Assembly (NCBI GenBank): GCA_964424265.1
Contig: CAYRHX010000004.1
Coordinates: 4,081 to 68,080, forward strand
Length of the DNA: 64,000 bases
Origin: an uncultured Candidatus Saccharibacteria bacterium
GTDB taxonomy: Bacteria; Patescibacteriota; Minisyncoccia; Phycocordibacterales; UBA2100
Reading direction: 5' to 3'
In this document: positions 24,614 through 56,635 of the stretch, piece by piece
Numbering within the stretch: position 1 is the first letter of the stretch
Layout of the letters: the number at the start of each line of letters is the position of its first letter
The notes under the pieces: model-generated
The model's database searches: none
What the model was told of the DNA's origin: nothing
The model's input: the letters and a program-made list of their open reading frames with translations, nothing else
Made by a program: the position numbers and the translations under genes

Positions 24614-26542
24614 TTATAGATTCGGATTGATTTTCTTCAAATTATACATTGCTTTCATAAAGCCCTCACCGCCAAATTTGTGACCCTGCCATATCTCCGG
24701 AACCATCCAGAGATCCGTCTTTGAGATCAAATCGAGTATTGGCTTCCACGGGACAGAACCGTCGCCGATCTGAAGTCCTTCTCCGTTAATGCGGGCAGCA
24801 TCCGATATATGCAAATATCTTGCGACTGGCAGTATCTTCTTCGCATAACTTAGAATGTCTTTCTCGTACTGATTGCAATACAAAGCGGCGTGAGACGTAT
24901 CAAACACGACACCGTAACCGTGTTCATTTGAAAACTGCGCAATCTCCTCCGCGTTCATAAAATTCGTGTGATACCACTGGCCCCCGAAGCACCAAGCGCA
25001 GCCGGGCATGTTTTCCACAAGCAGCTCGAAGCCGTCAGCGTCGAGTTTGTGGAGGGAATCTGCAAAATTCCGATTCAGTCGAGGTATATCATCCATTTTC
25101 GGCAATTGCATATTCATGCCGCCCGGATGGACGACAAACATTACTTTCTCATCCTTATTGACAAACAGTCTTTTTAGCGTGCGTGCGTACGCCAGCGCTT
25201 TATTGAAAAAGGCAATCGAGTGTTTCCGAAGGTCGTCGTCCAAGCTGGAGAGGTCGAGGAGCGTATCGCCATCATACTCTGGGCCGTGTACCGTCATCAT
25301 AAGAGGATATTTCTTGGTATATTTTCGAGCACTCGATACGTCCGAGCCGGTCAAGTGAATCTCGGCGAAATCCGAACCGCAGTGCATGAGCGTGTCAATA
25401 TCGCTCATGCGCGCAACAACTCCCCATGCATGACGTACGTCCACTGCACCGAAGAGGTCGCGAGGGCGCAGATTGATGTCCGATTCGAGAACGTAGTCGT
25501 CTTTTTTAATGCTTCTCGCCGTCAATTTTTTACCGATAAAAAGATCGAGCTTCATGGGGCTCGTACCCTTGCCAGGACTCTTGAGATTCAAATGCGCTTG
25601 CGTTAGTACGGTCCCTTTCTTCAGGTCCTTCGCGGCAACGATACTCTTCGCGAGAGTCTCACGATTGATGTACTCTCCGCGTGACGGTATACGCACACCG
25701 TCGCCCAAGGACGTTTCGACAACACGGATTTGCTTCACGAGCTCTGCGAATTCGGCGGGCTCAAGACTTGCCTTATGGTCGGGCCCGACCATCTCTCGAT
25801 CTAGCGTGATGTGGCGTTCAATCACGCATGCACCGAGCGCAACCGCAGCCGCTGAGACCGAGATCCCCGCCTCGTGTCCCGAATAGCCGACGAGACAGTG
25901 GAACCGCTTCTGAAGCGTATTTATAAACCTCAGATTTACGTCGTGAAATGGTGTCGGGTAGGTGCTGTTAGTGTGGAGCAGAACGTACTGGGCTTTAATC
26001 TTGTCGAGATACCCGAAGAGCTGTTCAACTTCAGACATAAATGACATGCCAGTTGATATGAGGATTGGCTTCTTGAGTTCCGCCACCGCACCGATGAGCG
26101 GTAGATTGAACATGTCGGCGGACGCAATTTTGTACGCGGGCAAATCAAGTGTATTAAGAAATGCGAGACTCTCCTCATCCCAAGCGGTACAGAGAAACTC
26201 TACCCCCATCGTGCGCGCATACTGGCACAGCGTACGCATCTCCGCTTCGCTCAGTTCACTCTTTTGGATGTGTCGCAAGCTATAGTGTGTGGCATTCTCT
26301 TCGGATGCAGAATTCTTCAGAGCCTTGGCCGCGTAGACGCTTTTTAAATCGCGCTTTTGAAACTTGACCGCATCGACGTGAGCCGCCACAGCATGATCAA
26401 TCAGCTTCTTTGCGAGTGTAACATCGCCCTGATGATTTAGGCCGATCTCAGCAATGATATACGTCGGATGACCATCGCCAATGCGCTTCTTCCCGATACG
26501 TATTTCAGTCATAGGCACTACCGTACCACAACACACGACCAC
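24614..26542 (-). CDS. Fusion: NeuB-family nonulosonic acid (sialic/legionaminic/pseudaminic acid) synthase + xylose-isomerase-like TIM-barrel domain
   Basis: 642 aa. N-terminal IGDGHPTYIIAEIGLNHQGDVTLAKKLIDHAVAAHVDAVKFQ with SAF domain (KDLKKGTVL). C-terminal about 300 aa sugar-phosphate isomerase/epimerase-like. Probable start MTEIRIG at about 26512. Confidence 0.75.
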   Translation of the reverse strand: MVVCCGTVVPMTEIRIGKKRIGDGHPTYIIAEIGLNHQGDVTLAKKLIDHAVAAHVDAVKFQKRDLKSVYAAKALKNSASEENATHYSLRHIQKSELSEAEMRTLCQYARTMGVEFLCTAWDEESLAFLNTLDLPAYKIASADMFNLPLIGAVAELKKPILISTGMSFMSEVEQLFGYLDKIKAQYVLLHTNSTYPTPFHDVNLRFINTLQKRFHCLVGYSGHEAGISVSAAAVALGACVIERHITLDREMVGPDHKASLEPAEFAELVKQIRVVETSLGDGVRIPSRGEYINRETLAKSIVAAKDLKKGTVLTQAHLNLKSPGKGTSPMKLDLFIGKKLTARSIKKDDYVLESDINLRPRDLFGAVDVRHAWGVVARMSDIDTLMHCGSDFAEIHLTGSDVSSARKYTKKYPLMMTVHGPEYDGDTLLDLSSLDDDLRKHSIAFFNKALAYARTLKRLFVNKDEKVMFVVHPGGMNMQLPKMDDIPRLNRNFADSLHKLDADGFELLVENMPGCAWCFGGQWYHTNFMNAEEIAQFSNEHGYGVVFDTSHAALYCNQYEKDILSYAKKILPVARYLHISDAARINGEGLQIGDGSVPWKPILDLISKTDLWMVPEIWQGHKFGGEGFMKAMYNLKKINPNL

Positions 26543-36182: not shown

Positions 36183-37615
36183 TTAAATGAATTTGACCTT
36201 ACGCATCGCAAATGCGGTCATCTTAAGCAGGAGCCATCCGTGGCTCCAACGCTGAATGTTGGTGGTACCGTAGGTGCGCTCTCCGTAGTGCACGGGCATG
36301 TCGATGATCTTTCGGTTGAGCTTCGCTGCACCAAAGAGGAGGTCGAAATCACCAAAGGGATCGAAGTCGCCAAAAAAGGATCGGCCTGCCTGAATCTCCG
36401 CATAGTCTTCGCGCCAGAGCATCTTCGTGCCGCAGAGCGTGTCTTTCAGTCTCGAATCCAAAAGCCAGCTAAATGCCAGACCGAAAAATTTGTTGGCGAG
36501 CAAGTTCAAGAATCTCATAGATTCCTTCTCAAGCGGATACACGAGACGCGAGCCGTTGATAAAATCCCCCCTCCCCTCGACGAGCGCGCGATAAAATTTC
36601 TCCATATCGGATGCCGGAACAGTCATGTCCGCATCGTAAATAGTAAGGATATCGCCGGTCGCCATGTCAAATCCCTTTCGCACCGCGTCGCCCTTCCCCT
36701 TTCCGTCCTGTTGTGCAATCAATATTTTTCTCGCTCCTCGAGACGAGTCCGACCCGTATTTTTTGGCCACACGTTGTATCTCGTCCCACGTATTGTCCTT
36801 TGAGTGCCCCTCTATCAAGATGAGTTCGGTATATGATCCGAGCGTCGGGAGCTCCATCACAATACGTTCAATCATTCCTGCTTCATTGCGCGCGGGGACG
36901 ACGATTGAAAGAGAGGGGTTCGGCAGAGGTGAGCGCGAATCAATCTTGCGCAAGACAGCGTAGTGGTAGAGTCCGAGCCGCGTGAATGGAAAGATATTTG
37001 CGAGGTAGGTATTAAAAAAAGTGCTGATGATTGGGATGTATTTGGGGACGAGCATTCGTGTGCCGCCTCGCGCGACCTCAAGACCCGCAAGATGTGCGAA
37101 GTTCTCAAGGTCGTTGCGAGAAATCCAATTTTGCGTGCGCGATGGCATACGCAGCCCCACTGATGATGCCAGCTGCAAAAACGGCTCCCAAAGCGTACTG
37201 TGCTGCGTTACGACGATACGCCCGCGCCACGAGATGCGTTCGGAAGAATCGCGCAAGAGCGTCTCCACGTCATCAACGTACCCGAGCAGATCGGAAATAA
37301 CGGCGTACTCAAACGTTTCCTTCACGTTAGCAAGTTGCTCTTGCTTGAATGTCACATTCTCTGGCAGTTTTTGCTTTTGAATCTCAGAGATTATGCGCGC
37401 GCTCGCATGGATCCCAAGTCCGCGCTTCGGTGTAAGCAACGCGAGCAGGTCCGGAGAATCGGCACCGATGTGCAGTACCGTCGCTCCACGGGGAACGAGA
37501 AACCCGACGAAGGATTCGAGCGAGCGATGGTAGTACCTGTTTCGTTTGCGCCATCGCATCCTATCCTCAGCGTGACTGTCGAAATATTTGAGTGCCGCGT
37601 TACTGAGATGCATAG
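36183..37615 (-). CDS. Fusion: class I SAM methyltransferase-like domain + GT2 glycosyltransferase
   Basis: ORF extends to 37868, but the first 85 codons overlap the upstream gene and look non-coding. Start chosen at MHLSNAALKYFD. MTase motif ATVLHIGADSPDLLALL. GT2 motifs SIVVPARNEAGMIERIV, DADMTVP. Confidence 0.65.
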
Positions 37616-39306
37616 TTTGGGATCGAATACGGATCGCTCGCAGGGCAATAGTATACATGAGCCTCGATAGCACCCGAAGACGTGTCGAACACGCTCTCAC
37701 AGGTAGCAAAAAATCTGCTGTAAAACCCTGACATGTTGAGTTGAGGAAAATCGACGACGAGGTAGTGACCTTTGTGTTGCGCAAATCGCTCGCGATGCAC
37801 GCTCTCATTGCCAAGTACGGCATAAAATCTGCCTGCGTACTTCCCGAGGCTGTTGAGCTCGTATGCACCAGTATCGGCGTGAGTTATCACGCTTTTTATC
37901 TCGCTCGACGCGATATAAGCAACGCTCTCAGCAAGAACTTTCGGCGCGCTCCCATTAATCCTCCCCCACAAAAGCTCCTCAATAAACACTGCGCTGCCCG
38001 TGAGCCCGACCACCATTACAGCCACTAGGAGAGCAGGACGAATTTTTGGAAAGATTAGCGCACCAAGAGCCATACATCCTGCAGTAGCAAAGCTCACCGC
38101 GATAAAAAGAAACGACACGTAAAATCCGAGTGGCCCACTCCCTCCCGTAAACGGCATGAGAATATTCCAATTTCCATGCGCGACAGCTGAGATCCATTCC
38201 GTCTTTGGGTACAGAGGCACGACCTGCGGGGAGAGGAAATTGATCGATACAAGTATTGCCGCAAGAATGCCCCCAAGACTAAGCCCCTGCATCACACGGA
38301 CTCTCGGAATGTCCGCGAGCACTCGCGTGAGAATGTCGCCCACGATAGCGGCGAGGGGCACAATACTGAACATCAGATATTTATCGAGCGCTCCTTGTGA
38401 AAAATCAAACAGCACAAAGTAGAAGAACGCGCCCAGCCCCAGATATATGACAAAGATACGGTACCTTTTGAAAGTTTCTCTCGAGATGAACACAAGCGGC
38501 ACAATCAGCAAGGGCGACAAATAGAACAGCGCCTTAACCGCCTGTATAAGAATCTGCAGATACCCACGACCCTCAAAACGTACGTAGTAAAGAACGTGAG
38601 CGACCATTTTGCTCACGTCAAAGGATGGGAGAAAAAAGTGCGCACTTACGATCGCGGTAATTGCAATTGCTCCGCAGCCGAGAATGCCGATTAATGCACG
38701 AACGAAAACCCTACGCGTAAGCCTGTGGCGTACTTCTATAAGATAATCAGCGGCCAATGCACCCAAAATGAGGACAGCGCTGAGCTTGGTCAACAACCCG
38801 AGAGTGATCACAAGCGCAGCAACACATACCCACGCATACGATTCGCGAGTGGTCGCGGCACGGCGACAACGATCATACACGTACACTGCCAAGAGAAAGA
38901 GTGACGGAAGAATTGCACCATCAGTGTCCACCATGAGAGACGCCCACACGCCGTACATACAGACCGAGTAAAGCGAGAGCGCAGCAATGGCTGCATACAT
39001 TCCGGAGCGCCTACGCACCACAAGATACAGAAGTGCTGCCGAGAGTACTCCGAACGTAAGCGGAATGACGCGCAAATTATCGGCACCGATGACGTCTCCG
39101 CCCCATCGGTAAATACGCTCCGTGAGTGGAGGATGTGCGGCGAGCCCGCCAACGATATGCGAACGAACGATCTCGGCCGTTTTCCATTCATCTTGGTGAT
39201 ATGGGAGCGAGAGCCCTGGTAACCGTATAACTACGAACGCAAGAAGTAACCCAATAACTATGAACAACTCACGTTTGTGGCTCTGGATCCAACTTAAATT
39301 AATCAT
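37600..39306 (-). CDS. GT-C fold membrane glycosyltransferase (ArnT/PMT-like) with C-terminal soluble domain
   Basis: 568 aa, about 12 TM helices. N-term LPGLSLPYHQDEWK. Conserved C-terminus HKGHYLVVDFPQ...AIEAHVYYCP, shared with the 42312-43784 paralog. Confidence 0.7.
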   Translation of the reverse strand: MINLSWIQSHKRELFIVIGLLLAFVVIRLPGLSLPYHQDEWKTAEIVRSHIVGGLAAHPPLTERIYRWGGDVIGADNLRVIPLTFGVLSAALLYLVVRRRSGMYAAIAALSLYSVCMYGVWASLMVDTDGAILPSLFLLAVYVYDRCRRAATTRESYAWVCVAALVITLGLLTKLSAVLILGALAADYLIEVRHRLTRRVFVRALIGILGCGAIAITAIVSAHFFLPSFDVSKMVAHVLYYVRFEGRGYLQILIQAVKALFYLSPLLIVPLVFISRETFKRYRIFVIYLGLGAFFYFVLFDFSQGALDKYLMFSIVPLAAIVGDILTRVLADIPRVRVMQGLSLGGILAAILVSINFLSPQVVPLYPKTEWISAVAHGNWNILMPFTGGSGPLGFYVSFLFIAVSFATAGCMALGALIFPKIRPALLVAVMVVGLTGSAVFIEELLWGRINGSAPKVLAESVAYIASSEIKSVITHADTGAYELNSLGKYAGRFYAVLGNESVHRERFAQHKGHYLVVDFPQLNMSGFYSRFFATCESVFDTSSGAIEAHVYYCPASDPYSIPNYASQ

Positions 39307-39309
39307 ATT

Positions 39310-40341
39310 TTAGGCCAATTCCTCTGTCAACCGCACCCCAAGAGTTTTGAGACTATGGTTCTTGAGAACGGTTCCCCGGGGTTCTGAGGCTAAATATTTT
39401 CGTTCATCTTCTGACATCGTAAGAAGCTCTCGCAACTTATCTGCCACCGATTTCGGGTCTCCGGATACGAGATACTTGTCGCCCGCAATTGCGGCGAAAT
39501 CCTTGCTCGCAGCGATAACGAGGCAGCCACTCGCCGCAGCCTCGAACATGGTCTTATCATACGTGCCACTTGCCGCAAGGTTTACAAATACCTCATGCTC
39601 AGAGAATACCCCTGGCGCTTCGCTGTGGGGCACTCCACGATAAAATTTTACCGTTTCGGCAAGACCGAGCTCACGTGCGCGCGCAATTATTGCATCGCGA
39701 TACGCTGCATCCCGCGGCAATGCATTTCCGTAAAACGACGCTGAAAACTGAACCCCTTCTTTTGAAAGTACTCCGAGCGCCTCGAGCAACACATCGGGTT
39801 TCTTAGCCGGCGCGAATCGACTGAAGAAGAGAATGGTGCGCGGAATTCGACTATGTATACTCGGTGCAAATAACTTCTCATCAACACCGACGGGCATGAT
39901 CACCGTCTTTGAGTATTTCGCCGTGTAGGAAAATCGCGACGTGCAAAATACTTTCTCCGCGAACATTGCTGCCACGTCGGTAAGAAAACCACCGGCATAG
40001 TGATTCCGCCACATATATACTGGTTTTCGCAACATCTTCCACAACAGCCCCGCAAGCAAAATGTACTCCTGATTCATGTGCACAAACACGGAATCGTACG
40101 AGGAGCGTAGTTTCCACGCCAAAATCAGAAATCGCACTGCGTAGGCGATTTTGGAGCGGGCGCCACGCTCTTTGCCGAGCGAGGATACCTGCACATGTGC
40201 GGGAAATTCGTGTTTACCTTCGTATAGACAGATAATCTCAATATGCTCGAAATGTTTCGCGAGCTCGATGATCCATCCGTGAAAAAATCCGAGAAATGGA
40301 TCCGAGCGATCGACAACTTGTGTCGTTATGAGGAGTCTCAT
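39310..40341 (-). CDS. Glycosyltransferase family 4
   Basis: GT4 C-terminal EX7E-type region KPDVLLEALGVLSKEGVQF...EAAASGCLVIASK. Start chosen at MRLLITTQ (ORF extends to 40365). Confidence 0.75.
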   Translation of the reverse strand: MRLLITTQVVDRSDPFLGFFHGWIIELAKHFEHIEIICLYEGKHEFPAHVQVSSLGKERGARSKIAYAVRFLILAWKLRSSYDSVFVHMNQEYILLAGLLWKMLRKPVYMWRNHYAGGFLTDVAAMFAEKVFCTSRFSYTAKYSKTVIMPVGVDEKLFAPSIHSRIPRTILFFSRFAPAKKPDVLLEALGVLSKEGVQFSASFYGNALPRDAAYRDAIIARARELGLAETVKFYRGVPHSEAPGVFSEHEVFVNLAASGTYDKTMFEAAASGCLVIAASKDFAAIAGDKYLVSGDPKSVADKLRELLTMSEDERKYLASEPRGTVLKNHSLKTLGVRLTEELA

Positions 40342-40348
40342 GAAAGTT

Positions 40349-42292
40349 TCATTTTCCGTACACACCCTCTAAAAGATCGAGATCTTTGTGCGTATCGCGG
40401 AGAAGTTTTACATTCTTGTGCTCCATCGCCTTCAATACTTCAATGCCGGGCGCATCGTCGGGAAATAGCTCTTCGTACTTCGCACGAAACGCGGCAAAGT
40501 CCTTGATGAAACAATGTCCCCCTGCCCCGCGCCCCGGCGGCCCACCGTGCCCGCTTTGATGAATAGGATCGAGATGCGAGCGTCCCATACGCGGATCAGC
40601 TGCAAACGCGTCGCGCACGGCTTCATAATTCCCCCCGAGTTTTCGCACAAAATCGTAGAGAATGTTGATATACACAACCTTGATATAGAGCCAATTATTG
40701 CCGGCATATTTGATAAATTCCGCTTCTACGGCTGAGCAAATAAGCTCGAACGGCGCGGGAGGAAGAATCGAGATGACCCTTTGCGCGAGTGCCCGAACTT
40801 CTGAAGTATCTGTGCAGATGCCGACGATGTTGCGATCGGGATGTGCGGCGTCGTACGCAGCTGTGGCCTCGCGCAAAAATTCTGGCGAATGCATTACCAC
40901 TTTTGTCGGATACTGCTTCTGAATGCTCTCAGTCATGCCCGGCAACATAGTGGATTTGATTACGGCAACCTTGCCCTCTCCAACCAGTGATACTGCTTCG
41001 CGAACGATTGCATCGCTAAATCCGCTGGGAGTAGTCGGTGTCGGCACCGCGATAAACACAATGTCGCAATCTTTTATTTTGTCCTTATTATTTCGGTACT
41101 GCTCTTCGAGAGAGTATCGAATTGGAGTAAATCCACGCGCCTCCAGTTCGTCGGCATAATTTTTGCCAATAAACCCCTGGCCTACATATCCAACGGTCGG
41201 TCGGTCCGTATCTTTTTGCTTTTTCTCGCCCGCACGCGCCTCCACACCCGAAGCAGAAAGCGATATGTCTGCGTACCACAGATCTCGATATTCAGCCTCA
41301 TTCGGAAAATTCAGAGTCAACGTGCCACGTTTTCCCTCCGAAAGCACCGCGATAGCAACGCGCGCCATGCCCTCGGGTGATGCAACAATCGCCCCCGCCT
41401 CCTTCGCAAGCCCTACGTCATAAGAAACGACGGGGCACCCAGCGGCAAGCGCTTCCATAATCACCATACCGAAACCTTCATACGACGAGGTGAGAAGAAA
41501 GATATCTGCGACTTTGTAATATGGAAATGAATCCTGAGCGCCTTCAAAGGCCACCCTATCGGCGAGTCCCAATTCATGCACTAGTGCCTCGAGTGGCGCA
41601 CGCTCAGAGCCGCTTCCCACAATAACAAGGCCCGCGGTGGGGTCCGCTTTCGCGATCTCTGCAAACGCGCGAATCGAAGCGGCGACGTTTTTTTCTTTTT
41701 CCAACCGCGCCACGATGAGAACGATCTTTTTGAAATTCGGAAATCGCGTGCGTCTGTCCAATGGCTCTGCTTTCATGAGATTCTCGAGATCAACAAAAAC
41801 AGGGAGCACGGTGACAGGGGCTTTGATCCCACGTGCCGTCAGTGAATCCTGAATGCGCTTTGAGACGACGCGTACGGCATCCGCCCGCGACAAGAGAAAC
41901 TGCGCGAGAAGGACCCTCAAGCGGTTTCCAAGCGAATGACCTCGAAAATTCGGATCGAAGAGATCGGTGTGGACCTGAAGATGCAATTTACTTCCACGCA
42001 AGCGAGCAATCGTCCAGGCGACTAACCCCGTCAAAAATGGATCTTGCGAAGTCACTACGTCCGGTCGTTGGATCCTCCAACCTGCTGCAATAGTGCGCAG
42101 AGAGCCCAAAACGCGCCCGAGACCAAACCCCCGCACCGCAGCGTTCCCTGATATCTGGACGAGCTGCAGAGGCCCATGAGGCACCAAAACATCCATTCGC
42201 TCGACAGTTCGCGCCTGCATCCGCAGGCGCCGGGCAACAGAGCTCGTCTCATTAAAAGCGTTCCAATCCGTGGAGAGTACCAATACCCGCAT
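40349..42292 (-). CDS. Fusion: GT4 glycosyltransferase + UDP-glucose/GDP-mannose dehydrogenase-family NAD-binding and catalytic-Cys domains
   Basis: 647 aa. N-term about 370 aa GT4 (GFGMVIMEALAAGCPVVSYD). C-term VGYVGQGFIGKNYA (Rossmann) and GGHCFIKD (UDPGDH catalytic GGSCFPKD equivalent). About 280 aa, apparently lacking the C-terminal UDP-binding domain. Confidence 0.65.
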   Translation of the reverse strand: MRVLVLSTDWNAFNETSSVARRLRMQARTVERMDVLVPHGPLQLVQISGNAAVRGFGLGRVLGSLRTIAAGWRIQRPDVVTSQDPFLTGLVAWTIARLRGSKLHLQVHTDLFDPNFRGHSLGNRLRVLLAQFLLSRADAVRVVSKRIQDSLTARGIKAPVTVLPVFVDLENLMKAEPLDRRTRFPNFKKIVLIVARLEKEKNVAASIRAFAEIAKADPTAGLVIVGSGSERAPLEALVHELGLADRVAFEGAQDSFPYYKVADIFLLTSSYEGFGMVIMEALAAGCPVVSYDVGLAKEAGAIVASPEGMARVAIAVLSEGKRGTLTLNFPNEAEYRDLWYADISLSASGVEARAGEKKQKDTDRPTVGYVGQGFIGKNYADELEARGFTPIRYSLEEQYRNNKDKIKDCDIVFIAVPTPTTPSGFSDAIVREAVSLVGEGKVAVIKSTMLPGMTESIQKQYPTKVVMHSPEFLREATAAYDAAHPDRNIVGICTDTSEVRALAQRVISILPPAPFELICSAVEAEFIKYAGNNWLYIKVVYINILYDFVRKLGGNYEAVRDAFAADPRMGRSHLDPIHQSGHGGPPGRGAGGHCFIKDFAAFRAKYEELFPDDAPGIEVLKAMEHKNVKLLRDTHKDLDLLEGVYGK

Positions 42293-42311: not shown

Positions 42312-43784
42312 TTAGGGCTTTTTCAAAACGACAGGACACTCGTAGACATGCCCCCTTATGACGCCGGAAGCAGAAGTGAATGTACTTGCACAGTGAGAAA
42401 AGAAGTCTTCGTAAAAACTGTGCTGGTCCCATCGGGGGATATCGACAACAAGATAGTGGCCCCTGAACGTGGAAAAAAGCTCTTTGTACCGCTCTTCATA
42501 TTGTGGAACCGCATAAAAGCGCTCCGCAAATTTGCCCATCTGCCAGAGCTCAAACGCGCCTGTCGCGCCATGAGTAATGACCGATGTCACCTTGTCCGAC
42601 TGCCGTATATATTCGATGGAGTCATTGAGTACATCTCGAGTACTTCCGTTGATCTTCCCGAAATATAATTCTTCTGTAAAAATGCCGGCATACAGGATGC
42701 TAAGAAACAACAGCGCGGTAACAAGTTGGCGTCGCCATTGTGGCCTGATAAGCGCAAACAGGGTGATCCCACCTGCGACAAGAAACGAGGCGGCGATAAA
42801 AAGGAATGACACATAAAACCCTGCCGGGCCCGAGCCGCCCACGAAAGGAATCAATATGTTCCAGTGAAGTCCGAGAATTTCTTTCACCCATGCCGACTTC
42901 GGATACAGAGACAACGCTTCCTGTGGCAAGAAGTTGAGCGCAAGAAGCCCGATGCCACCGAGAAGTAGGGCTGCACAATACGCGGGTCGGAGATCAGAGA
43001 TCCTCGAAATCTGCGTCGCAAGTGTCACCCCGATAATCGCACACAGGGGTGCCACAATGAGCAAAAGACACTTGTCGAGACCGCCCGTTGAAAAATCGAA
43101 GAGCACAAAATAGAAAAGAAATGCGAACGTAAGATATGCGAAGAAAACGCGCGTTCGATCAAAGACATCGCCAGTCACAAATGCAAGCGCGTATAAAAGT
43201 GGCCCGACATAAAGCAGCACTCTCCCCGTCTGCACGGCGATCTGCCCCCAATCTCGCGAGACATCAAAAACGAGCGCCGATGTGCGCGGCACTACCAACG
43301 AAAACAAAGCGCCAATCGAGAGAATCAGAAGTAGCGCAAATGGAATACGCGAGCGCCCTCCCCGCGCCATTCGATCATATGCAAAGACTGCGAGGAGAAA
43401 AAAGAACGGCAGTATCGCTCCGTCGAGATCAAACATTGTTGCACCAAGCGCTCCATACGCAACAGTGCCGAAGAGGAACAACGAAAGTAGCGCGGCGCGC
43501 GCCCCAGCGCGCGCCGCTACGATCACGTACAAGAGTACATACGAAAGCACAGTTAAGAAAAGCGGCAGCAAACGAAAATAATCTGGCTGTAGCGTTGCCC
43601 CAGCTGCGCTAAACAAGAATTCGGCAAGCGGTGACCCGTGGAAATACGGCTCCACTACCGTTGCCCCCTCCACCGCAAACCGCGCCGCCTTCCATTCACC
43701 TTGATGAAATGGCAAATCGAGACCAGGCAATTTAAGTACGAGGAGAAATAGCACGAGGCAACCAACCATCACAATCCTTCGCAT
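42312..43784 (-). CDS. GT-C fold membrane glycosyltransferase paralog
   Basis: 490 aa. LPGLDLPFHQGEWK and FRGHYLVVDIPRWDQHSFYEDFFSHCASTFTSASGVIRGHVYECP parallel the 37600-39306 protein. Confidence 0.7.
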   Translation of the reverse strand: MRRIVMVGCLVLFLLVLKLPGLDLPFHQGEWKAARFAVEGATVVEPYFHGSPLAEFLFSAAGATLQPDYFRLLPLFLTVLSYVLLYVIVAARAGARAALLSLFLFGTVAYGALGATMFDLDGAILPFFFLLAVFAYDRMARGGRSRIPFALLLILSIGALFSLVVPRTSALVFDVSRDWGQIAVQTGRVLLYVGPLLYALAFVTGDVFDRTRVFFAYLTFAFLFYFVLFDFSTGGLDKCLLLIVAPLCAIIGVTLATQISRISDLRPAYCAALLLGGIGLLALNFLPQEALSLYPKSAWVKEILGLHWNILIPFVGGSGPAGFYVSFLFIAASFLVAGGITLFALIRPQWRRQLVTALLFLSILYAGIFTEELYFGKINGSTRDVLNDSIEYIRQSDKVTSVITHGATGAFELWQMGKFAERFYAVPQYEERYKELFSTFRGHYLVVDIPRWDQHSFYEDFFSHCASTFTSASGVIRGHVYECPVVLKKP

Positions 43785-43902: not shown

Positions 43903-44730
43903 TTATGAGCCACTAACTAAATCATCGTCCCACCCGGTGTCCCCAGAAACAATAGTAAAATGAGCTGCTTGAGTTGGTGGCGATGTTTCAGCGTTCCTAA
44001 GCGCACGGAATCCCCAAGAGTAGGCATCGCCCGCATATCGGGTGAACACTTCGTCGAGAGTAGCCGTTTGGTACGGACGTTGCGCATCCTCTTTTTCCCA
44101 CACGATTATGTCTCCATGAGAATTGTGACCGAGCACAAGGCACGTATGATCAACTGCCTGGTCATGTATATATTTTGCGAATAGCACGGATGGAAAGCCG
44201 AAATTCTCTAAAAAAATCCGAAGATCCGCCGCTGATGTATATTGCCTATATTCCGCGTCAAAAAATTCCGCGGGAGGTCGCTCTGGAGTGGCTGCGTAGA
44301 GGCCCTGTTCTCGTTCGAGATTTTGAATGGCCACATGACAGTACCAGTCTCTAATGTGCAAGACACTTGGCTGATAGTGGGCGTTGCTAGAAACGCGATC
44401 GAAAGCGCGGACACCTTCTTCGATAACACGCATTTCCTCGGGCGTACGTTCAATATACGGCTTACGCGTGAGAAGACTCCATGATTTATCAGAAAGATCT
44501 TTAGCCCGTTCTTTTTCTTTGATCTGTTCCGGGCTTATTCGTGACGCCCTGCTTTGTATGTAGAAGGACTGCCGAATGATCTTTTGTTGCCGGGGAGTCA
44601 GCCTGGCAAAACCCTCTGTGCCCCGAACCATCTCCATAGTTTTCCGGCTTGCTTCCGCAGCACCTTCTTTCTGCGCTTTCAGTGATTTCTCTGCCTCCAT
44701 TAAGAACCATTGTAACAGGCGCCTCCCCAA
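43903..44730 (-). CDS. Hypothetical protein
   Basis: 275 aa, no recognisable family. Possible Cys/His pair (DWYCHV...GHNSHGD). Confidence 0.4.
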   Translation of the reverse strand: MGRRLLQWFLMEAEKSLKAQKEGAAEASRKTMEMVRGTEGFARLTPRQQKIIRQSFYIQSRASRISPEQIKEKERAKDLSDKSWSLLTRKPYIERTPEEMRVIEEGVRAFDRVSSNAHYQPSVLHIRDWYCHVAIQNLEREQGLYAATPERPPAEFFDAEYRQYTSAADLRIFLENFGFPSVLFAKYIHDQAVDHTCLVLGHNSHGDIIVWEKEDAQRPYQTATLDEVFTRYAGDAYSWGFRALRNAETSPPTQAAHFTIVSGDTGWDDDLVSGS

Positions 44731-44761: not shown

Positions 44762-45550
44762 TCAAGGAGAACGCATTGTATCTTTGCATAGGAACAGTAT
44801 GGCTCGATGGTCGCTAAGCGGGTGGTCTTCGCAGGTGTAGCCGGGAAAGAGTCGCAGGAAGTCTTCCTTGGATTTTGCCATCAAATCATAGTGCACCTCT
44901 CCAATGCATATCGCAGGAAGCATTGAGGCGTCTGCGGACGCAAACATGCTGTACTCCCCTCCCTCAATATCAAACTTCATCAAGTCTGTCTTCCCATCCC
45001 GCAACACATCATGAATCGACACGGAACGTACTGATATTTTCTCCTCATTCCTACTGCGTCTCATGAGAGACGATGAGATCGAGCTTTCAGCATTCCTAAA
45101 AAAAGAAACTTCGCCGGAGATTGATGACACGGCAGCCTGAACGCACGTAATGTTTTGGAATTGCTGCATATTTTTCACCAACAAGTCGAAATTTTCGGGG
45201 TCAGGTTCGTAGGCAGTAACGATTGCGTGTGGGTACGTGCACGCAAAAAAAGCCACCGAGGCTCCTATATGACTTCCAATATCGACTAATTTCTTAGGCT
45301 CAATACTAGACGGTATCCGATATTCACCGCCCACAAACACCTCCTTCAGTACAGCGATATCAGCGCCGTCACGCACATTGAAAACAAATTCCCTGCCTTG
45401 GTACGTCAGTCGTAAAGGAACTGGTTTTCGGCCAAAAACCCTTTTGCGCAGCGGGACCCCAAAGAGCGCAGCGGGACCCCAAAGAGCGCAGCGGTAAGAC
45501 GTATACGATCTGCTGTGCCTCTTCCGCCAAGCGTTGATCCTATACCCCAA
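44762..45550 (-). pseudogene. FkbM-family methyltransferase, N-terminus frameshifted by a 20-bp tandem duplication (original start likely 45594)
   Basis: FkbM motifs DIGSHIGASVAFF...TAYEPDPENF...KFDIEGGEY. ORF 45406-45594 (MIGNMMFLIRKIQEYWG...AALFGVPLR) is in the frame reached by deleting one 20-nt repeat unit (45446-45485). Its ATG overlaps the stop of the upstream GT4 by 4 nt. Confidence 0.65.
45446..45494. repeat. 20-nt direct tandem repeat gcgcagcgggaccccaaaga x2.45
   Basis: Copies at 45446-45465 and 45466-45485, partial third at 45486-45494. Read directly from the sequence. Confidence 0.9.
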
Positions 45551-45590: not shown

Positions 45591-46703
45591 TCACCCTCGA
45601 AGCGCATTAATCGTGCCCTGTACCATACGGTCGACCGTGAAGCTCGCAGACTTTCTTTGCGCTGCGGCGACTATGCGCTCCGTACGTGCGTTGTCCTGGA
45701 GCAGTGCTCGTATAGCAACCTCAAGCTCTTGCTCGTTGTTATACGATACCAGGATACCTTCCGTGTCTTGTTCCAAGAGCTCCGGGTTGCCACCAACGTT
45801 TGTAGTAATGATCGGAGTACCTATAGACATGACTTCAAGCAGTTGGTGCGAGAACCCCTCATATCCTGTATTCAAAACGAAAAGATCGGCTGCCTTGATA
45901 CGTTGGTAAAGATGTTCATGTGAAAGACGTCCGAGAAATTGCACGTGTTCAACAACGCCTTCTGCCACTGCACACTCCCTCAAGCGATCGCGCTCTGGCC
46001 CCTCACCAGCAATGAATAAGCTGACCGTAGGGAAATCTTTGATCAAACGCGAAAGAATACCGATCAGCGTGTGCATACCTTTCCAAGAAACAAGGCGTCC
46101 CGCTGTGAGAAGAGATGGGTGAGACATGTTGAATCTGAGTGCAAGCTCTGTCTTAGATTCCCGCACCTCCACGGGATCAAATGCGTTGTACACAATAGTT
46201 ATTTTCATCGGAGTGACCCCCCACTTTTCGACAATGCTTTTAAGGTATTGGCTTGGAACAATTATTCTATCGGCTCGACGCGCCACGAAAGATTGGAGAA
46301 AGATCAGAAAACGTACGGCAATTGGATGCTTGCCCTGATACCGTACAAATTCATCCAGGCTTTCCCGAATTCCAAAACGTTGTGTTCCTTGCTCCCACGC
46401 ATAATCACCTCCAACACGTAAAATGTATCGAGTGCGCAATACTCTCGCTGCTATAAATGCGGGCAAACCAGTACTCACGGGATCAAGCGCAAGAACACAA
46501 TCCGCTCGACGCCCCCGCAAAACAACGAGAAAGAAATAGATCACGTGACGAAGGACCTTTGGATAACGACTTACCAATTTAAAATGGACGACCTCAACCT
46601 CTATACCTCTCCGAGGAAGTTCTTCAACAAGGATCTTCGCATATGTGGCGGGCCCGCCAATGTCCGGAGGAAACGGTCCGGCGGCAAGAAGGATACGCTT
46701 CAT
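45591..46703 (-). CDS. Glycosyltransferase family 4
   Basis: 370 aa. MKRILLAAGPFPPDIGGPATYAKIL. C-terminal GEGPERDRL...FVLNTGYEGFSHQLLEVMSIGTPIITTNVGG. Confidence 0.8.
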   Translation of the reverse strand: MKRILLAAGPFPPDIGGPATYAKILVEELPRRGIEVEVVHFKLVSRYPKVLRHVIYFFLVVLRGRRADCVLALDPVSTGLPAFIAARVLRTRYILRVGGDYAWEQGTQRFGIRESLDEFVRYQGKHPIAVRFLIFLQSFVARRADRIIVPSQYLKSIVEKWGVTPMKITIVYNAFDPVEVRESKTELALRFNMSHPSLLTAGRLVSWKGMHTLIGILSRLIKDFPTVSLFIAGEGPERDRLRECAVAEGVVEHVQFLGRLSHEHLYQRIKAADLFVLNTGYEGFSHQLLEVMSIGTPIITTNVGGNPELLEQDTEGILVSYNNEQELEVAIRALLQDNARTERIVAAAQRKSASFTVDRMVQGTINALRG

Positions 46704-53630: not shown

Positions 53631-55193
53631 TTATCGCCCTACGCCCTGTGACTCACCGGGTGCATACAAACTATGTACGAAGTTCAATAGCTTTCGCACA
53701 TCACTTTCTGAATCTTGGGAACCAAGAACGATAACAGCAATCTCGCGCTCCTCGTCCCCGATTTTGACATTGAATATGCCGGCGTAGGTCTCGAACGCTT
53801 CTCTCGTTTGGCCCACCTTCCCTCCTAGCAATGTCGCGGGGGCGTTTTTGATAAGATTGAAATTGCGAACGTTTTTAAACTCCGGTGTTCCATATACACT
53901 GTCTTTTATATCGCCCGAGGTAATGCCAAAAACAAAACGCCTGTTATCGCGAATATATCGCAGAAGCATGAAAAGATCTTGCGGCGTAGAATAATCGCCT
54001 TTTGCACCCGAAGGATCTGAAAAAATCGTGTGCGTGAGGCCGATCGCTTTCGCCTTCTCATTCATGTATTTCACAAATTGATCCCGACCTGTAATTGCGG
54101 CCAATGTTTCCGCGGCCTCATTGGAAGATTCCTGTAGAAGGAGAAACAAGAGGTCGTATACGCGCGCATCAGTGCCAACGCGCAACCGCGGAACTGATGT
54201 GTACACGATGGCATCCTCCGGGACTGCGATGGTTTTGTCGAGATTTATATACTCAGTGGCCACGAGCGCGCTCACGAGTTTGGAAATCGAAGCAATGGGT
54301 GCCGCTATCGAGGCTCCTTTCTCCGATAGGACCGTCCCGTTTTTCGCATCAGCCACGAGATACGAAGTCGCCGACACTGCTGGCGCTTTGAGCTGGTAGC
54401 CGAAAGAATCTTCCACGGGCGGAGCATTGTAGACGACCACTGACATCTCGGCAGATGCCAAGTCATATACTCGCTTCGCATCTTCGGTAGAAAGTCTGAT
54501 GCAACCACCAGAATAGGATGAGGCAACGGGAGTACCGTCTTCATAGTACGGCCACCCATGTATGAAGAAATTGCCCTGGAACGCGATGCTCCATGGTTGA
54601 TACACTTTTCCAAATGTTGAGAAGTGATTTTTCTCTTTTGTCTGGACGCGATAAATGCCCGCTGGCGTTTCCCACCACGAACCAGCTTTTCCTTTCGCGA
54701 GTATTGGCACTTCGAGCGCCACGACGCCATCGACGTTTACGCGCAGAAGCATGAGCGAGAGGTCGGCATCGATAAAAGAAACCTTGCTTGCCGTGAGTGA
54801 GGCCTTCACATCTTCGTAGTATCCTCGATCGGAGAGGGTCGCGAGCGCTCCGTAGACAAGAGGAAGGGTGGTTGATGCTGTCGAGGAGGGAATAGAAATG
54901 GAGTATACGGTTGGGGGTTTGTAGAGCACGTATCCGGAAAAACCGAGTGCCGCAAATGAAAGTACCGCGAGTATTGTGGTCGAGGCAGGTAGTGGCCAAC
55001 TCAACCCTCGATGAAGCTCTGCACGCGGCGGCGCGACGTCCTTTTGTGCAGTTGAGTGTCCCGACGCGAGCGAGGTCAAAAGTGCCTCACTCGTCCAGCC
55101 CTCAATCATGAGGCGACTCAATATTGCACCGTCCGACATTCCTTGCCTTCGAAGAAATTCGATACGTACCGTCGGATCGTCGATTCGTGTCAT
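53631..55193 (-). CDS. Bifunctional L,D-transpeptidase (YkuD) + serine D-Ala-D-Ala carboxypeptidase (S11/PBP5-like)
   Basis: Start chosen at MTRIDDPT (ORF extends to 55454). YkuD catalytic HGWPYYEDGTPVASSYSGGCIRLS. SxxK motif SISKLVSAL and S11-like C-terminal half. TM near N-terminus. Confidence 0.7.
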   Translation of the reverse strand: MTRIDDPTVRIEFLRRQGMSDGAILSRLMIEGWTSEALLTSLASGHSTAQKDVAPPRAELHRGLSWPLPASTTILAVLSFAALGFSGYVLYKPPTVYSISIPSSTASTTLPLVYGALATLSDRGYYEDVKASLTASKVSFIDADLSLMLLRVNVDGVVALEVPILAKGKAGSWWETPAGIYRVQTKEKNHFSTFGKVYQPWSIAFQGNFFIHGWPYYEDGTPVASSYSGGCIRLSTEDAKRVYDLASAEMSVVVYNAPPVEDSFGYQLKAPAVSATSYLVADAKNGTVLSEKGASIAAPIASISKLVSALVATEYINLDKTIAVPEDAIVYTSVPRLRVGTDARVYDLLFLLLQESSNEAAETLAAITGRDQFVKYMNEKAKAIGLTHTIFSDPSGAKGDYSTPQDLFMLLRYIRDNRRFVFGITSGDIKDSVYGTPEFKNVRNFNLIKNAPATLLGGKVGQTREAFETYAGIFNVKIGDEEREIAVIVLGSQDSESDVRKLLNFVHSLYAPGESQGVGR

Positions 55194-55197
55194 AGCT

Positions 55198-56430
55198 TTA
55201 TTCTTTACCGAGGACCACCCTAAGGCTTCGATATTTGTTTGCCGGGTCCCAAAAGAGATATGAATCGAGCCCAGCGTCTTCGTTTGCCTTAATCTGCTCT
55301 TGCACCATCGCTGGCGTGTAGGTAACGGGATAATCAAAGCTTTGGAGCCAGGGGCGTATTTTAGACGCAGGATACGCGGGCTTCGAGTACACCGCGGGAG
55401 TTGAGGTCCCAATACGTTCGTAGGCGAATGATGCGATCGGCGTTGTCGTTGCAAGGGTTCGTCTTACCGCCTCGACCATGGAAAGATGTACTATGTCGTA
55501 CGAATGGGAGTTCACATCCTTATACCCATTGAATCCGCTTGGATAGTGCGAGGGATACACCATTGGATCAATGAAGTCGAAGTACGGCAGTGCGCGCTCC
55601 AGTACTTGACCAATATTCAGATCATCTTGATTTGTGGCCGTCATCCCAAAGAGATCCGCCGATGTAACGACCCCTATAGGCTCGAGTTGCTCAGACAGAT
55701 ACTTGAAAAAACTCTCGAGTACTTCCGGCTTTGTGCGGCCATCGGCCCACGAATACACCGCCTCTTTCATCGGACCGTCTGAGGGAAAGCGGATGTAGTC
55801 AAAGTTGAGTTCATCAAAACCAATCGCGTACGATTCTTTGGCCAATTCCACGACGTTGTCCCAGTATGGTTTTGCCCCCACGTCTACAAACGCGAGACCT
55901 TTGTGATCCTTCCACACGCCTCCACCACTCTTTTGCACTGCTTCGTCAGGATGGACTTTTGTGTACGCGGGATTTTGAAACGTGGTGATGCGGCCGATGA
56001 CATAAATATCTTTTTCGTGCAGCTCTTTGATAAACGCCTTCATATCACGTGCCCCACAGGCATCCGACACATAGTCTTTGAGTGAAGGATTGTCTGTAGG
56101 AAACGCTATCTTTCCTGTGTAATCTCGAATATCGATAAGGAGGGCATTGATCTCCGTAGTGTCAACAAGCTCAATCAAATCTTTGCGAAACGAAGGCGTG
56201 CCAGCCGCGCATTGCGACATATACACCGCCTTCACTGTGGGCGGCGTAGCAAGATGCTGCACCTCTGGCTCTGTAGGTGTGATCACGCCATTTGAACCTA
56301 CGACTTGAGCAACATTGCCGCCACGAATATACGAAACTTTCGGCATAGCAGAAGCCACTGCGGCTACAACACCAACAGAAAGGAGAAACAGTACTCCGAG
56401 TATCAATATCCTACTGCGCCAATTCTTCAT
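55198..56430 (-). CDS. Secreted glycoside-hydrolase-like TIM-barrel protein (DUF4015/GHL-type)
   Basis: 410 aa. Signal/TM ILILGVLFLLSVGVVAAVASA. GFDELNFDYIRFP motif typical of this hypothetical GH-like family. Confidence 0.55.
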   Translation of the reverse strand: MKNWRSRILILGVLFLLSVGVVAAVASAMPKVSYIRGGNVAQVVGSNGVITPTEPEVQHLATPPTVKAVYMSQCAAGTPSFRKDLIELVDTTEINALLIDIRDYTGKIAFPTDNPSLKDYVSDACGARDMKAFIKELHEKDIYVIGRITTFQNPAYTKVHPDEAVQKSGGGVWKDHKGLAFVDVGAKPYWDNVVELAKESYAIGFDELNFDYIRFPSDGPMKEAVYSWADGRTKPEVLESFFKYLSEQLEPIGVVTSADLFGMTATNQDDLNIGQVLERALPYFDFIDPMVYPSHYPSGFNGYKDVNSHSYDIVHLSMVEAVRRTLATTTPIASFAYERIGTSTPAVYSKPAYPASKIRPWLQSFDYPVTYTPAMVQEQIKANEDAGLDSYLFWDPANKYRSLRVVLGKE

Positions 56431-56635
56431 GTCGGTGAGCGCTTTCGGCGTATGTCTCTCCAGTTCTTGAGGCAGCTGACTGTCCGCTGCCTCGTCTGCG
56501 CACCACGATCCCCAACGCCACTACCAAAATCCCTGCAATCAAGAAAAGCACGGTATCCCAGCTCTGTGGAAATCCCAAAAACGGCAACGTAGCCACAAAC
56601 GCCCCCAACGTCATAAGAAGTGTGTCGACTGTCAT
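56411..56635 (-). CDS. Small two-TM membrane protein
   Basis: 74 aa. LLMTLGAFVATLPFLGF and VLFLIAGILVVALGIVV. Start overlaps RT stop region. Confidence 0.4.
   Translation of the reverse strand: MTVDTLLMTLGAFVATLPFLGFPQSWDTVLFLIAGILVVALGIVVRRRGSGQSAASRTGETYAESAHRHEELAQ

What the first reader, a model, noticed from the sequence alone, without database searches (positions are those of the whole stretch)
40349..42292. GT4 glycosyltransferase fused to a truncated nucleotide-sugar dehydrogenase (UDPGDH-like)
The N-terminal about 370 aa are a standard GT4. The C-terminal about 280 aa carry a Rossmann motif VGYVGQGFIGK and the catalytic-cysteine motif GGHCFIKD of UDP-glucose/GDP-mannose 6-dehydrogenases. 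The region is too short to include the C-terminal UDP-binding domain. A single polypeptide could oxidise a nucleotide sugar and transfer it, or the dehydrogenase half could be a degenerate binding module. Either would be unusual.
Basis: partly seen in the sequence, partly recalled or inferred. Interest (0 to 1): 0.5.

Follow-up and report, generated by a model that had tools for sequence, protein, structure and literature searches.

The report
Glycosyltransferase fused to minimal sugar dehydrogenase
This is a real, conserved gene of tiny uncultured (Patescibacteria) bacteria in which a sugar-transferring enzyme has fused with its operon neighbour, a stripped-down relative of UDP-glucose dehydrogenase that keeps every catalytic residue but lacks the domain that normally holds the nucleotide; neither the fusion nor the widespread short dehydrogenase family turned up as studied in my searches.

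Summary
Window 40349-42292(-) is one uninterrupted 647-aa ORF: a complete GT4 glycosyltransferase (1-347), a disordered linker (348-365), then a 282-aa module with the NAD-binding and central domains of UDP-glucose/GDP-mannose dehydrogenases. It has no UDP-binding C-terminal domain. It is not an assembly error: about 115 protein clusters (100-44% identity) and 20 of 80 sampled genomes carry the same fusion. The truncation is not special to the fusion. The 280-320-aa 'short DH' is a family found in at least 570 species-level genomes, with all named taxa Patescibacteria. T, E, E, K, N, C and D of the UGDH active site and the GxGxxG motif are at least 97% conserved. In sister lineages the same GT4 and short DH are adjacent genes, sometimes in frame and separated by one stop codon, so the fusion arose by stop loss. 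The short DH is also found fused to the downstream glycosyltransferase, to TviC-like NDP-sugar SDRs, to an ATP-grasp ligase and to itself. Best reading: an active, domain-minimal nucleotide-sugar 6-dehydrogenase makes a uronic acid that the tethered GT4 transfers into a cell-surface glycan. How it binds substrate without the UDP domain is unknown. Novelty: new variant of a known kind; moderate interest.

The parts
40349..42292 (-). Whole fusion ORF (647 aa; stop TGA at 40349-40351)
   Evidence: full-length orthologs
41252..42292 (-). GT4 (GT-B fold, retaining) glycosyltransferase module, residues 1-347
   Evidence: Pfam. AF2 pLDDT about 90. Foldseek hits to BshA/MshA. H108, R196, K201, E272 and E280 invariant or nearly so in 87 fusions.
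41453..41479 (-). GT4 E-x7-E motif (E272...E280, EGFGMVIME)
   Evidence: E280 invariant, E272 at least 90% conserved
41198..41251 (-). Flexible linker, residues 348-365 (SASGVEARAGEKKQKDTD), derived from the former stop codon and intergenic spacer
   Evidence: pLDDT below 50 for 350-360, pTM 0.58. Split-gene junctions.
40352..41197 (-). Short nucleotide-sugar-dehydrogenase-like module, residues 366-647: NAD-binding domain plus central helical domain, no UDP-binding domain
41165..41182 (-). Rossmann dinucleotide motif G371-Q-G373-F-I-G376
   Evidence: invariant
40697..40711 (-). Catalytic Lys/Asn helix K528...N532 (equivalent to S. pyogenes K204/N208)
40499..40522 (-). Catalytic cysteine motif G591-G-H-C594-F-I-K597-D598 (equivalent to C260/D264), preceded by family-specific R588
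40352..40453 (-). Family-specific conserved helical tail, residues 614-647 (K626 N627 ... K636 D637 ... Y645 G646), which ends the protein where canonical enzymes continue into the UDP-binding domain
39310..40365 (-). Downstream partner glycosyltransferase with only the Glycos_transf_1 lobe recognised. Likely true start is ATG 40341, 8 nt after the fusion's stop. Its ortholog lies directly downstream in nearly all related loci and is itself fused to the short DH in P0253 and P0261.
45591..46703 (-). GT4 'b' of the conserved cluster. It lies directly upstream of the GT4c/DH pair in most related loci. Here it is separated from the pair by three inserted genes.

Best explanation
The ORF encodes a bifunctional enzyme of a Patescibacteria (Kaiserbacteria-like) cell-surface glycan pathway. 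Its C-terminal module is an autonomous, catalytically competent, domain-minimal member of the nucleotide-sugar 6-dehydrogenase lineage. Using NAD+ and the Cys594 thiohemiacetal/thioester mechanism, with K528, N532, D598, E471, E475 and T448, it oxidises the C6 hydroxymethyl of a hexose to a carboxylate. The hexose is most likely carried on a nucleotide (UDP-Glc or UDP-HexNAc). The N-terminal retaining GT4 then transfers that uronic acid to the growing glycan. A flexible linker of about 18 residues keeps producer and consumer together at 1:1 stoichiometry. The fusion arose by loss of the stop codon between two adjacent, co-oriented operon genes. SHOWN: a single conserved ORF; two independently folding modules; conservation of all catalytic residues in both; absence of the UDP-binding domain; adjacency of the two genes in sister lineages. 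INFERRED: enzymatic activity, the identity of the substrate, and that the GT4 uses the DH product.
Against: In every characterised family member the missing C-terminal domain supplies conserved Lys/Arg contacts to the UDP diphosphate (established knowledge of UGDH structures). How a nucleotide sugar would bind here is unexplained. The protein scores 113.9 bits against TIGR03026, whose cutoff is 189.8. The SDR partners match TviC and GalE only below equivalog cutoffs. AF2 gives no confident inter-module interface (pTM 0.58), so direct channelling is not supported beyond tethering. No biochemical data exist for any member; five literature searches found none.
Confidence: 0.55

Rival explanations
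1. Post-transfer oxidation. Lacking a nucleotide-binding domain, the short DH does not act on an NDP-sugar. Instead it oxidises C6 of a hexose after the GT4 (or the downstream GT) has attached it to a lipid- or glycan-bound acceptor. The fusion hands the GT product directly to the dehydrogenase.
For: The UDP-binding domain is cleanly absent across the whole family. The DH is fused to glycosyltransferases on either side in different lineages. The loop before the catalytic Cys carries a family-specific insertion with conserved H573, H578, S580 and R588 that could form a different binding site. In C. jejuni, modification of GlcA C6 occurs after transfer.
Against: No member of this enzyme family is known to act on non-nucleotide substrates (established knowledge). 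At least 13 of 80 loci pair or fuse the DH with an NDP-sugar SDR and have no orthologous GT4 in view, which fits a soluble NDP-sugar pathway better. The loop that wraps the uridine in UGDH is retained.
Confidence: 0.2
2. The partner supplies the nucleotide pocket. The short DH is inactive alone and borrows the NDP-binding Rossmann lobe of its fused or adjacent partner (GT4, downstream GT or SDR) to hold the nucleotide while it oxidises C6.
For: In most loci where neighbours are in view, an NDP-sugar-binding protein is fused or immediately adjacent. The GT-B C-lobe and the UGDH C-domain are both UDP-binding Rossmann-like folds (established knowledge).
Against: The linker is disordered and AF2 predicts no fixed interface. 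The partners belong to three unrelated folds or families, so a common docking mode is unlikely. The DH-only model is compact and confident. Tandem DH-DH and DH-ATP-grasp fusions exist.
Confidence: 0.1
3. Non-catalytic or degenerate module. The DH half is a relic used only for NAD(H) or sugar binding, regulation or oligomerisation of the GT4.
For: A whole domain has been lost. The score is below the NCBIfam family cutoff.
Against: Every catalytic residue and the GxGxxG motif are at least 97% conserved over 84 modules, and family members share about 53-88% identity with the window module across many candidate phyla. Most members are standalone proteins.
Confidence: 0.05
4. The single ORF is an artefact: two genes merged by a sequencing or assembly error at the junction.
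For: In sister lineages the two genes are separate, sometimes by only one in-frame stop codon.
Against: The identical architecture occurs in about 115 protein clusters from NCBI, ENA, JGI and Logan assemblies, and in 20 independent genomes that form one clade. The one apparent close 'standalone' relative (P0002, L001) is a chimeric contig that still carries the fusion's linker.
Confidence: 0.01

Closest known systems
UDP-glucose / GDP-mannose 6-dehydrogenase family (e.g. S. pyogenes HasB 1DLI/1DLJ, C. jejuni Cj1441 7KWS, P. aeruginosa AlgD 1MFZ, human UGDH 2Q3E)
   Same: NAD-binding Rossmann domain. Long central helix and helical domain. Identical catalytic set (Thr, 2 Glu, Lys, Asn, Cys, Asp). 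Best sequence and fold matches.
   Different: Lacks the entire C-terminal UDP/GDP-binding alpha/beta domain (about 90-130 residues). The first beta-alpha-beta region is about 24 residues shorter. It has an insertion of 10 or more residues with conserved His/Arg in the loop before the Cys, and a family-specific conserved tail. It scores below the TIGR03026 cutoff.
Two-domain beta-hydroxyacid dehydrogenases / imine reductases (HIBADH, 6PGDH-like; e.g. 3QHA, 1WP4)
   Different: Only 10-17% identity. These enzymes lack the GG-x-C-x-x-KD catalytic cysteine motif and the UGDH Lys/Asn helix. NAD_binding_2 is at best marginal (E 0.05 in P0125).
C. jejuni HS:2 capsule pathway: Cj1441 (UGDH), Cj1432 N-domain (GT4 GlcA transferase), Cj1438C (ATP-dependent amidoligase) (PMC11800397)
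   Same: The same set of activities that is fused or adjacent to the short DH in Patescibacteria: a 6-dehydrogenase, a retaining GT4 and an ATP-grasp-type ligase.
   Different: In C. jejuni the dehydrogenase is a separate, full-length three-domain enzyme. Homology of the GT4s is only at family level.
B. subtilis teichuronic acid operon TuaC (GT4) / TuaD (UGDH), and TviB/TviC of the Vi antigen
   Same: Operon pairing of a GT4 or a C4-epimerase SDR with a nucleotide-sugar 6-dehydrogenase. Weak NCBIfam hits to TuaC, TuaD and TviC.
   Different: The genes are separate and the dehydrogenases full-length. All scores are far below the equivalog cutoffs.
ArnA (bifunctional formyltransferase / UDP-GlcA decarboxylase)
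   Same: A precedent for fusing two consecutive nucleotide-sugar pathway enzymes on a flexible tether (established knowledge).
   Different: Unrelated domains. No glycosyltransferase is involved.

Membership tests
UDP-glucose/GDP-mannose dehydrogenase family (nucleotide-sugar 6-dehydrogenases) | N-terminal NAD-binding Rossmann domain (PF03721) with GxGxxG | tested here: met
   PF03721 E 1.1e-14 over 403-498. G371/G373/G376 are invariant. The first about 70 profile positions are not matched because this region is shortened.
UDP-glucose/GDP-mannose dehydrogenase family (nucleotide-sugar 6-dehydrogenases) | Central helical (dimerisation) domain PF00984 carrying the catalytic Cys in GG-x-C-x-x-KD | tested here: met
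   PF00984 E 1.5e-13. C594, K597 and D598 align to C260 and D264 of 1DLI.
UDP-glucose/GDP-mannose dehydrogenase family (nucleotide-sugar 6-dehydrogenases) | Catalytic Thr, Glu, Glu, Lys, Asn (S. pyogenes T118, E141, E145, K204, N208) | tested here: met
   T448, E471, E475, K528 and N532. T448, E471, K528 and N532 are at least 97% conserved, and E475 at least 90%.
UDP-glucose/GDP-mannose dehydrogenase family (nucleotide-sugar 6-dehydrogenases) | C-terminal UDP/GDP-binding domain (PF03720) | tested here: not met
UDP-glucose/GDP-mannose dehydrogenase family (nucleotide-sugar 6-dehydrogenases) | Whole-protein score above the curated family threshold (TIGR03026 NDP-sugDHase) | tested here: not met
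   113.9 bits against a cutoff of 189.8
UDP-glucose/GDP-mannose dehydrogenase family (nucleotide-sugar 6-dehydrogenases) | NAD+-dependent two-fold oxidation of an NDP-hexose to the NDP-uronic acid | not testable with these tools
   Requires an enzyme assay.
GT4 retaining glycosyltransferases (GT-B fold) | Two Rossmann-like lobes (Glyco_transf_4 plus Glycos_transf_1) | tested here: met
   Pfam E 1e-11 to 1e-30. AF2 model and Foldseek hits to BshA, MshA and PimA.
GT4 retaining glycosyltransferases (GT-B fold) | E-x7-E motif and basic residues that bind the donor diphosphate | tested here: met
   E272-x7-E280, R196, K201 and H108 are invariant or nearly so in 87 fusions. Assignment of their roles is by analogy to PimA and MshA (established knowledge).
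GT4 retaining glycosyltransferases (GT-B fold) | Membership of a specific characterised subfamily (BshA, MshA, PglJ, TuaC ...) | tested here: not met
   The best hit is BshA at 94 bits against a cutoff of 273.7. All other hits are also far below their cutoffs.
beta-hydroxyacid dehydrogenase / 6PGDH-like two-domain family | NAD_binding_2 (PF03446) profile match | tested here: not met
   No hit for the window protein at E<=10. In P0125 the hit is E 0.05 and 14 bits, against a cutoff of 21.

The most novel reading that the evidence does not exclude
The short DH is the first member of the UGDH lineage that does not use a nucleotide handle. It would oxidise C6 of a hexose already attached to a lipid carrier or nascent glycan by the GT it is tethered to, making uronic acids in situ. 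If so, genome-reduced Patescibacteria would use a previously unknown post-glycosylation route to acidic surface glycans. A weaker variant is that it does use NDP-sugars but binds them with an entirely new two-domain mode.
Probability: 0.2. Interest if true: 0.8.

Novelty: new variant of a known kind. Interest (0 to 1): 0.45.

Why it matters
In every characterised UDP-glucose/GDP-mannose dehydrogenase, the third domain clamps the nucleotide. Here at least 570 species-level genomes, all of whose named taxa are Patescibacteria, carry a highly conserved form lacking that domain but keeping the whole catalytic apparatus. Family members share about 53-88% identity with the window module. This raises two possibilities. 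The third domain may be dispensable, which is relevant to minimal-enzyme design and to the evolution of this family from two-domain 6PGDH-like dehydrogenases. Alternatively, the substrate may not be a nucleotide sugar. The several independent fusions (GT4-DH, DH-GT, DH-SDR, DH-ATP-grasp, DH-DH) give a ready-made map of its pathway partners. They point to uronic-acid-containing surface glycans as a common feature of these episymbiotic, uncultured bacteria, whose envelopes are almost uncharacterised. The fusion in this window is a convenient single-polypeptide construct for testing both activities.

Tried and rejected
(1) Frameshift or assembly artefact: rejected. (2) P0002/L001 as a genuinely standalone close relative, which would imply a recent or unstable fusion: rejected. 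L001 is a 4x-coverage contig in which AT-rich SAICAR-synthase DNA is joined at about nt 335 to the fusion's own linker sequence. (3) A hidden UDP-binding domain: searched with Pfam at E<=10 in the protein, its tail and an ortholog whose UniRef auto-name claims that domain. Nothing was found. (4) A separate gene supplying the missing domain: none among the 51 window ORFs scanned or the annotated neighbours of L004, L006, L007 and L009. A few smaller or unscanned ORFs remain. (5) A second short-DH or canonical UGDH copy in the window: tblastn found only the one. (6) Assigning the GT4 to a characterised subfamily: all NCBIfam and PDB matches are generic. (7) Five literature searches found no paper on a truncated UGDH or on UGDH in Parcubacteria. 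The library lacks most subscription journals, so absence is not proof. (8) AF2 inter-domain packing as evidence for channelling: not informative (pTM 0.58). (9) A single origin for all fusions holds only for the main clade. The roughly 46%-identity group (L004, P0247) falls outside it in a midpoint-rooted NJ tree, which may reflect an independent fusion or a long branch.
Full report
OBSERVATION. Window 40349..42292 on the minus strand is a single 647-aa ORF with no internal stop. Pfam finds a complete GT4 glycosyltransferase: Glyco_trans_4_4/Glyco_transf_4 at 25-170 and Glycos_transf_1 at 180-298. After it come UDPG_MGDP_dh_N (403-498, E 1.1e-14) and the UDPG_MGDP_dh central domain (523-609, E 1.5e-13). 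The C-terminal UDP-binding domain PF03720 is not found, even at E<=10. NCBIfam agrees: TIGR03026 'nucleotide sugar dehydrogenase' covers model positions 71-279 of 413 and scores 113.9 bits against a cutoff of 189.8.

ANATOMY. An AlphaFold2 model built on 87 orthologs has mean pLDDT 88.4 but pTM only 0.58, and residues 350-360 fall below pLDDT 50. This indicates two well-folded modules (GT4 1-347, DH 366-647) joined by a flexible linker, with no confident mutual orientation. Modelled alone on 76 family members, the DH module gives pLDDT 92.7 and pTM 0.86.

A family profile aligned to S. pyogenes UGDH maps profile positions 43-251 onto residues 67-275 of the 402-residue enzyme. The catalytic T118, E141, E145, K204, N208, C260 and D264 correspond to T448, E471, E475, K528, N532, C594 and D598. 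About 45 residues follow in the short form, where UGDH has about 127. The module is therefore the NAD-binding domain (with a shortened first beta-alpha-beta region) plus the complete central helical domain, cleanly lacking the third domain.

Family-specific features are an insertion of 10 or more residues in the loop before the Cys (conserved H573, H578, S580, R588) and a conserved tail (K626 N627 ... K636 D637 ... Y645 G646). In the GT4 half, H108, R196, K201 and the E272-x7-E280 motif are invariant or nearly so. Its nearest structures are BshA, MshA and PimA, and no characterised subfamily is matched.

THE TRUNCATION IS A FAMILY TRAIT. Searching with the C-half returned thousands of hits. 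The best 120 were almost all standalone proteins of 280-330 aa with only the N and central Pfam domains. They share about 55-89% identity with the query, and all those carrying taxon names are Patescibacteria: Kaiser-, Taylor- and Falkowbacteria and others.

The best 80 carry names from Kaiser-, Nomura-, Adler-, Taylor-, Wolfe-, Falkow-, Buchanan- and Portnoybacteria, Paceibacterota and Parcubacteria. Some automated TPA labels ('Saccharibacteria', 'Gammaproteobacteria') could not be verified. Over 84 DH modules, the Rossmann glycines, the catalytic residues T448, E471, K528, N532, C594 and D598, and the family-specific R588, K626, N627, K636 and D637 are at least 97% conserved. This argues strongly against a degenerate module.

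THE FUSION IS REAL, CONSERVED AND DERIVED FROM ADJACENT GENES. The full-length query found the exact protein (P0121, in NCBI and ENA) and about 115 full-length clusters of 643-675 aa with both domain sets, running from 85% down to 44% identity. At 50% clustering these collapse to two representatives, P0191 and P0247.

The 80 genome loci were classified as follows:
- 20 loci are fused.
- 21 loci have the best in-locus match to the N-half (HMM 165-344 bits) directly upstream on the same strand.
- 5 loci have one gene between.
- 6 loci have such a GT4 a few kb downstream.

In annotated examples (L007, L009) the pair is GT4(373-386 aa)-85 bp-DH. Those GT4s are the best matches to the window N-half among all GT4s of their loci (121-122 bits against 70 or less).

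The split genes end with the same C-terminal helix motif (EY..AW..DI) as the fusion's 333-344. A stop and 0-45 bp follow, then Met plus a few residues and KPxIGFIGQG. In L030, L034 and L036 the two ORFs are in frame, separated by a single stop codon. The fusion is thus a stop-loss event, and the linker is the former spacer.

In an NJ tree of DH modules the 21 main fused sequences, including the window, form an exclusive clade. The roughly 46%-identity L004 type lies outside it. An apparent standalone close relative (P0002, 86%) is an artefact. Its contig L001 joins unrelated AT-rich DNA to the fusion's own linker sequence. P0003 is cut by a contig end and also carries the linker.

OTHER FUSIONS AND CONTEXT. 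Two neighbourhood types recur.
- Type A (including the window): epimerase - GT4a - GT4b - GT4c(+/fused)DH - (GtrA) - a GT with only the Glycos_transf_1 lobe recognised - GT2 / PMT_2-type GT-C. The window's downstream gene 39310-40365 is that GT. Its likely ATG lies 8 nt after the fusion's stop.
- Type B: DH followed by, or fused to, an extended SDR. The fused cases are L064, L067, L073 and P0373. Ten further loci have the SDR within about 900 bp downstream. The SDR's best NCBIfam match is TviC (UDP-GlcNAcA 4-epimerase, 174-196 bits), followed by GalE. Both are below cutoff.

Further architectures are DH-GT (P0253, P0261), DH-D-Ala-D-Ala-ligase-type ATP-grasp (P0257), DH-DH (P0230) and DH plus an unknown 385-aa extension (P0263). 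The GT half of P0253 aligns end to end with window 39310-40365 (31% identity, E 6e-64).

The rest of the window is a glycan-biosynthesis island of about 40 kb. It holds Wzy_C-TPR, GDP-mannose pathway genes, RmlD, C-methyltransferases, NeuB, and many GTs and SDRs. No canonical UGDH or PF03720-bearing ORF was found among the 51 ORFs scanned, and there is no second short DH.

MECHANISM. The most economical reading is that the short DH is an active NAD+-dependent 6-dehydrogenase that makes a uronic acid. It would use the canonical Cys-thioester chemistry, with the tethered GT4 as a consumer of the product. The partner set (retaining GT4, C4-epimerase-like SDR, ATP-dependent ligase) mirrors characterised uronic-acid pathways. 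One example is C. jejuni HS:2: Cj1441 oxidises UDP-Glc to UDP-GlcA, the GT4 domain of Cj1432 transfers GlcA with retention, and Cj1438C amidates the C6 carboxylate (PMC11800397).

The association with NDP-sugar SDRs favours a nucleotide-sugar substrate. What is not explained is how the diphosphate and uridine are held without the third domain. The expanded pre-Cys loop and the conserved tail are candidates, by inference only. I put about 0.55 on the main model. The alternatives are:
- about 0.2 on oxidation after glycosyl transfer (non-nucleotide substrate);
- about 0.1 on a partner-supplied nucleotide pocket;
- about 0.05 on a non-catalytic role;
- about 0.01 on an artefact.
The remainder is left for something not considered here.

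COMPARISON AND NOVELTY. The module works like, and descends from, the UGDH/GMD family. It fails two defining tests, the UDP-binding domain and the curated family score, so it should be filed as a distinct truncated subfamily rather than as 'a UGDH'. Public records name these proteins 'glycosyltransferase', 'hypothetical protein', 'UDPglucose 6-dehydrogenase' or, in one UniRef auto-name that I could not reproduce, 'C-terminal domain-containing protein'. Five literature searches found no description of the family or the fusion, though the library is incomplete.

Verdict: a genuine, conserved, uncharacterised new variant of a known kind. The fusion itself is an ordinary Rosetta-stone event. The more interesting object is the phylum-wide domain-minimal dehydrogenase. 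Interest 0.45.

Noticed in passing
window 56632-57666 (-): A 344-aa RVT_1 reverse transcriptase. In related locus L009 an RVT_1 gene sits next to a bAvd accessory gene, so this may be a diversity-generating retroelement. Template and variable repeats were not searched.
   Followed up: no
window 24614-26542 (-): A 642-aa fusion of NeuB (sialic/nonulosonic acid synthase) plus a SAF domain with a xylose-isomerase-like TIM barrel (AP_endonuc_2). This is an unusual architecture inside the same glycan island.
   Followed up: no
window 37600-39306 (-) and 42312-43784 (-): Two paralogous polytopic membrane proteins (38% identity, E 1e-108) flank the fusion/GT pair. The first matches PMT_2 (GT-C). The second lacks a stretch of about 70 residues and has no Pfam hit. 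The second, together with 43903-44730 (no Pfam) and an FkbM methyltransferase (44762-45550), is inserted between GT4b and the fusion relative to most related loci.
   Followed up: partly
window 36183-37868 (-): A 561-aa methyltransferase (Methyltransf_23) - GT2 fusion. Its listed ORF overlaps the next gene (37600-39306) by 269 nt, so its start is probably downstream of the listed GTG.
   Followed up: no
window 53631-55454 (-) and 11023-13410 (-): Other multi-domain fusions: a YkuD L,D-transpeptidase with a Peptidase_S11 D,D-carboxypeptidase (607 aa), and a Wzy_C O-antigen-ligase-like protein with TPR repeats (795 aa). The YkuD/S11 - TrwB-like ATPase - LTD/PKD - epimerase block is syntenic with L004, L006 and L007.
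   Followed up: partly
L001 1-420: The public contig (ENA ERZ1292617, 4x coverage) appears chimeric or rearranged. AT-rich SAICAR-synthase sequence is joined at about nt 335 to the GT4-DH linker, creating a false 'standalone' short DH (P0002).
   Followed up: yes
L003 932-1825; L021 3938-4804; P0230: Some genomes carry a second, more divergent short-DH paralog next to the fusion, and P0230 is a tandem DH-DH fusion. The L021 paralog keeps C594, K528, N532 and D598 but has T for E475, P for H593 and H for K626. This could indicate a hetero-oligomer or a second substrate specificity.
   Followed up: partly
P0257 (626 aa); P0263 (667 aa): In P0257 the short DH is fused to a D-Ala-D-Ala-ligase-type ATP-grasp enzyme. 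In P0263 it is fused to a C-terminal extension of about 385 aa with no Pfam match. The ATP-grasp fusion hints at amidation of the uronic carboxylate, as with Cj1438C.
   Followed up: partly
P0125 (UniRef100_A0A1F6DYP4): UniRef auto-names this 85%-identical ortholog 'UDP-glucose/GDP-mannose dehydrogenase C-terminal domain-containing protein', but Pfam PF03720 gives no hit even at E<=10. The name is probably a mis-annotation from a permissive signature.
   Followed up: yes
L041-L090 record titles: Many TPA_asm MAG records carrying this Patescibacteria-type locus are titled 'uncultured Gammaproteobacteria bacterium' or 'uncultured Candidatus Saccharibacteria bacterium'. One is a 772-kb contig (L043). 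The labels look unreliable, given the gene content and the CPR-like genome size.
   Followed up: no
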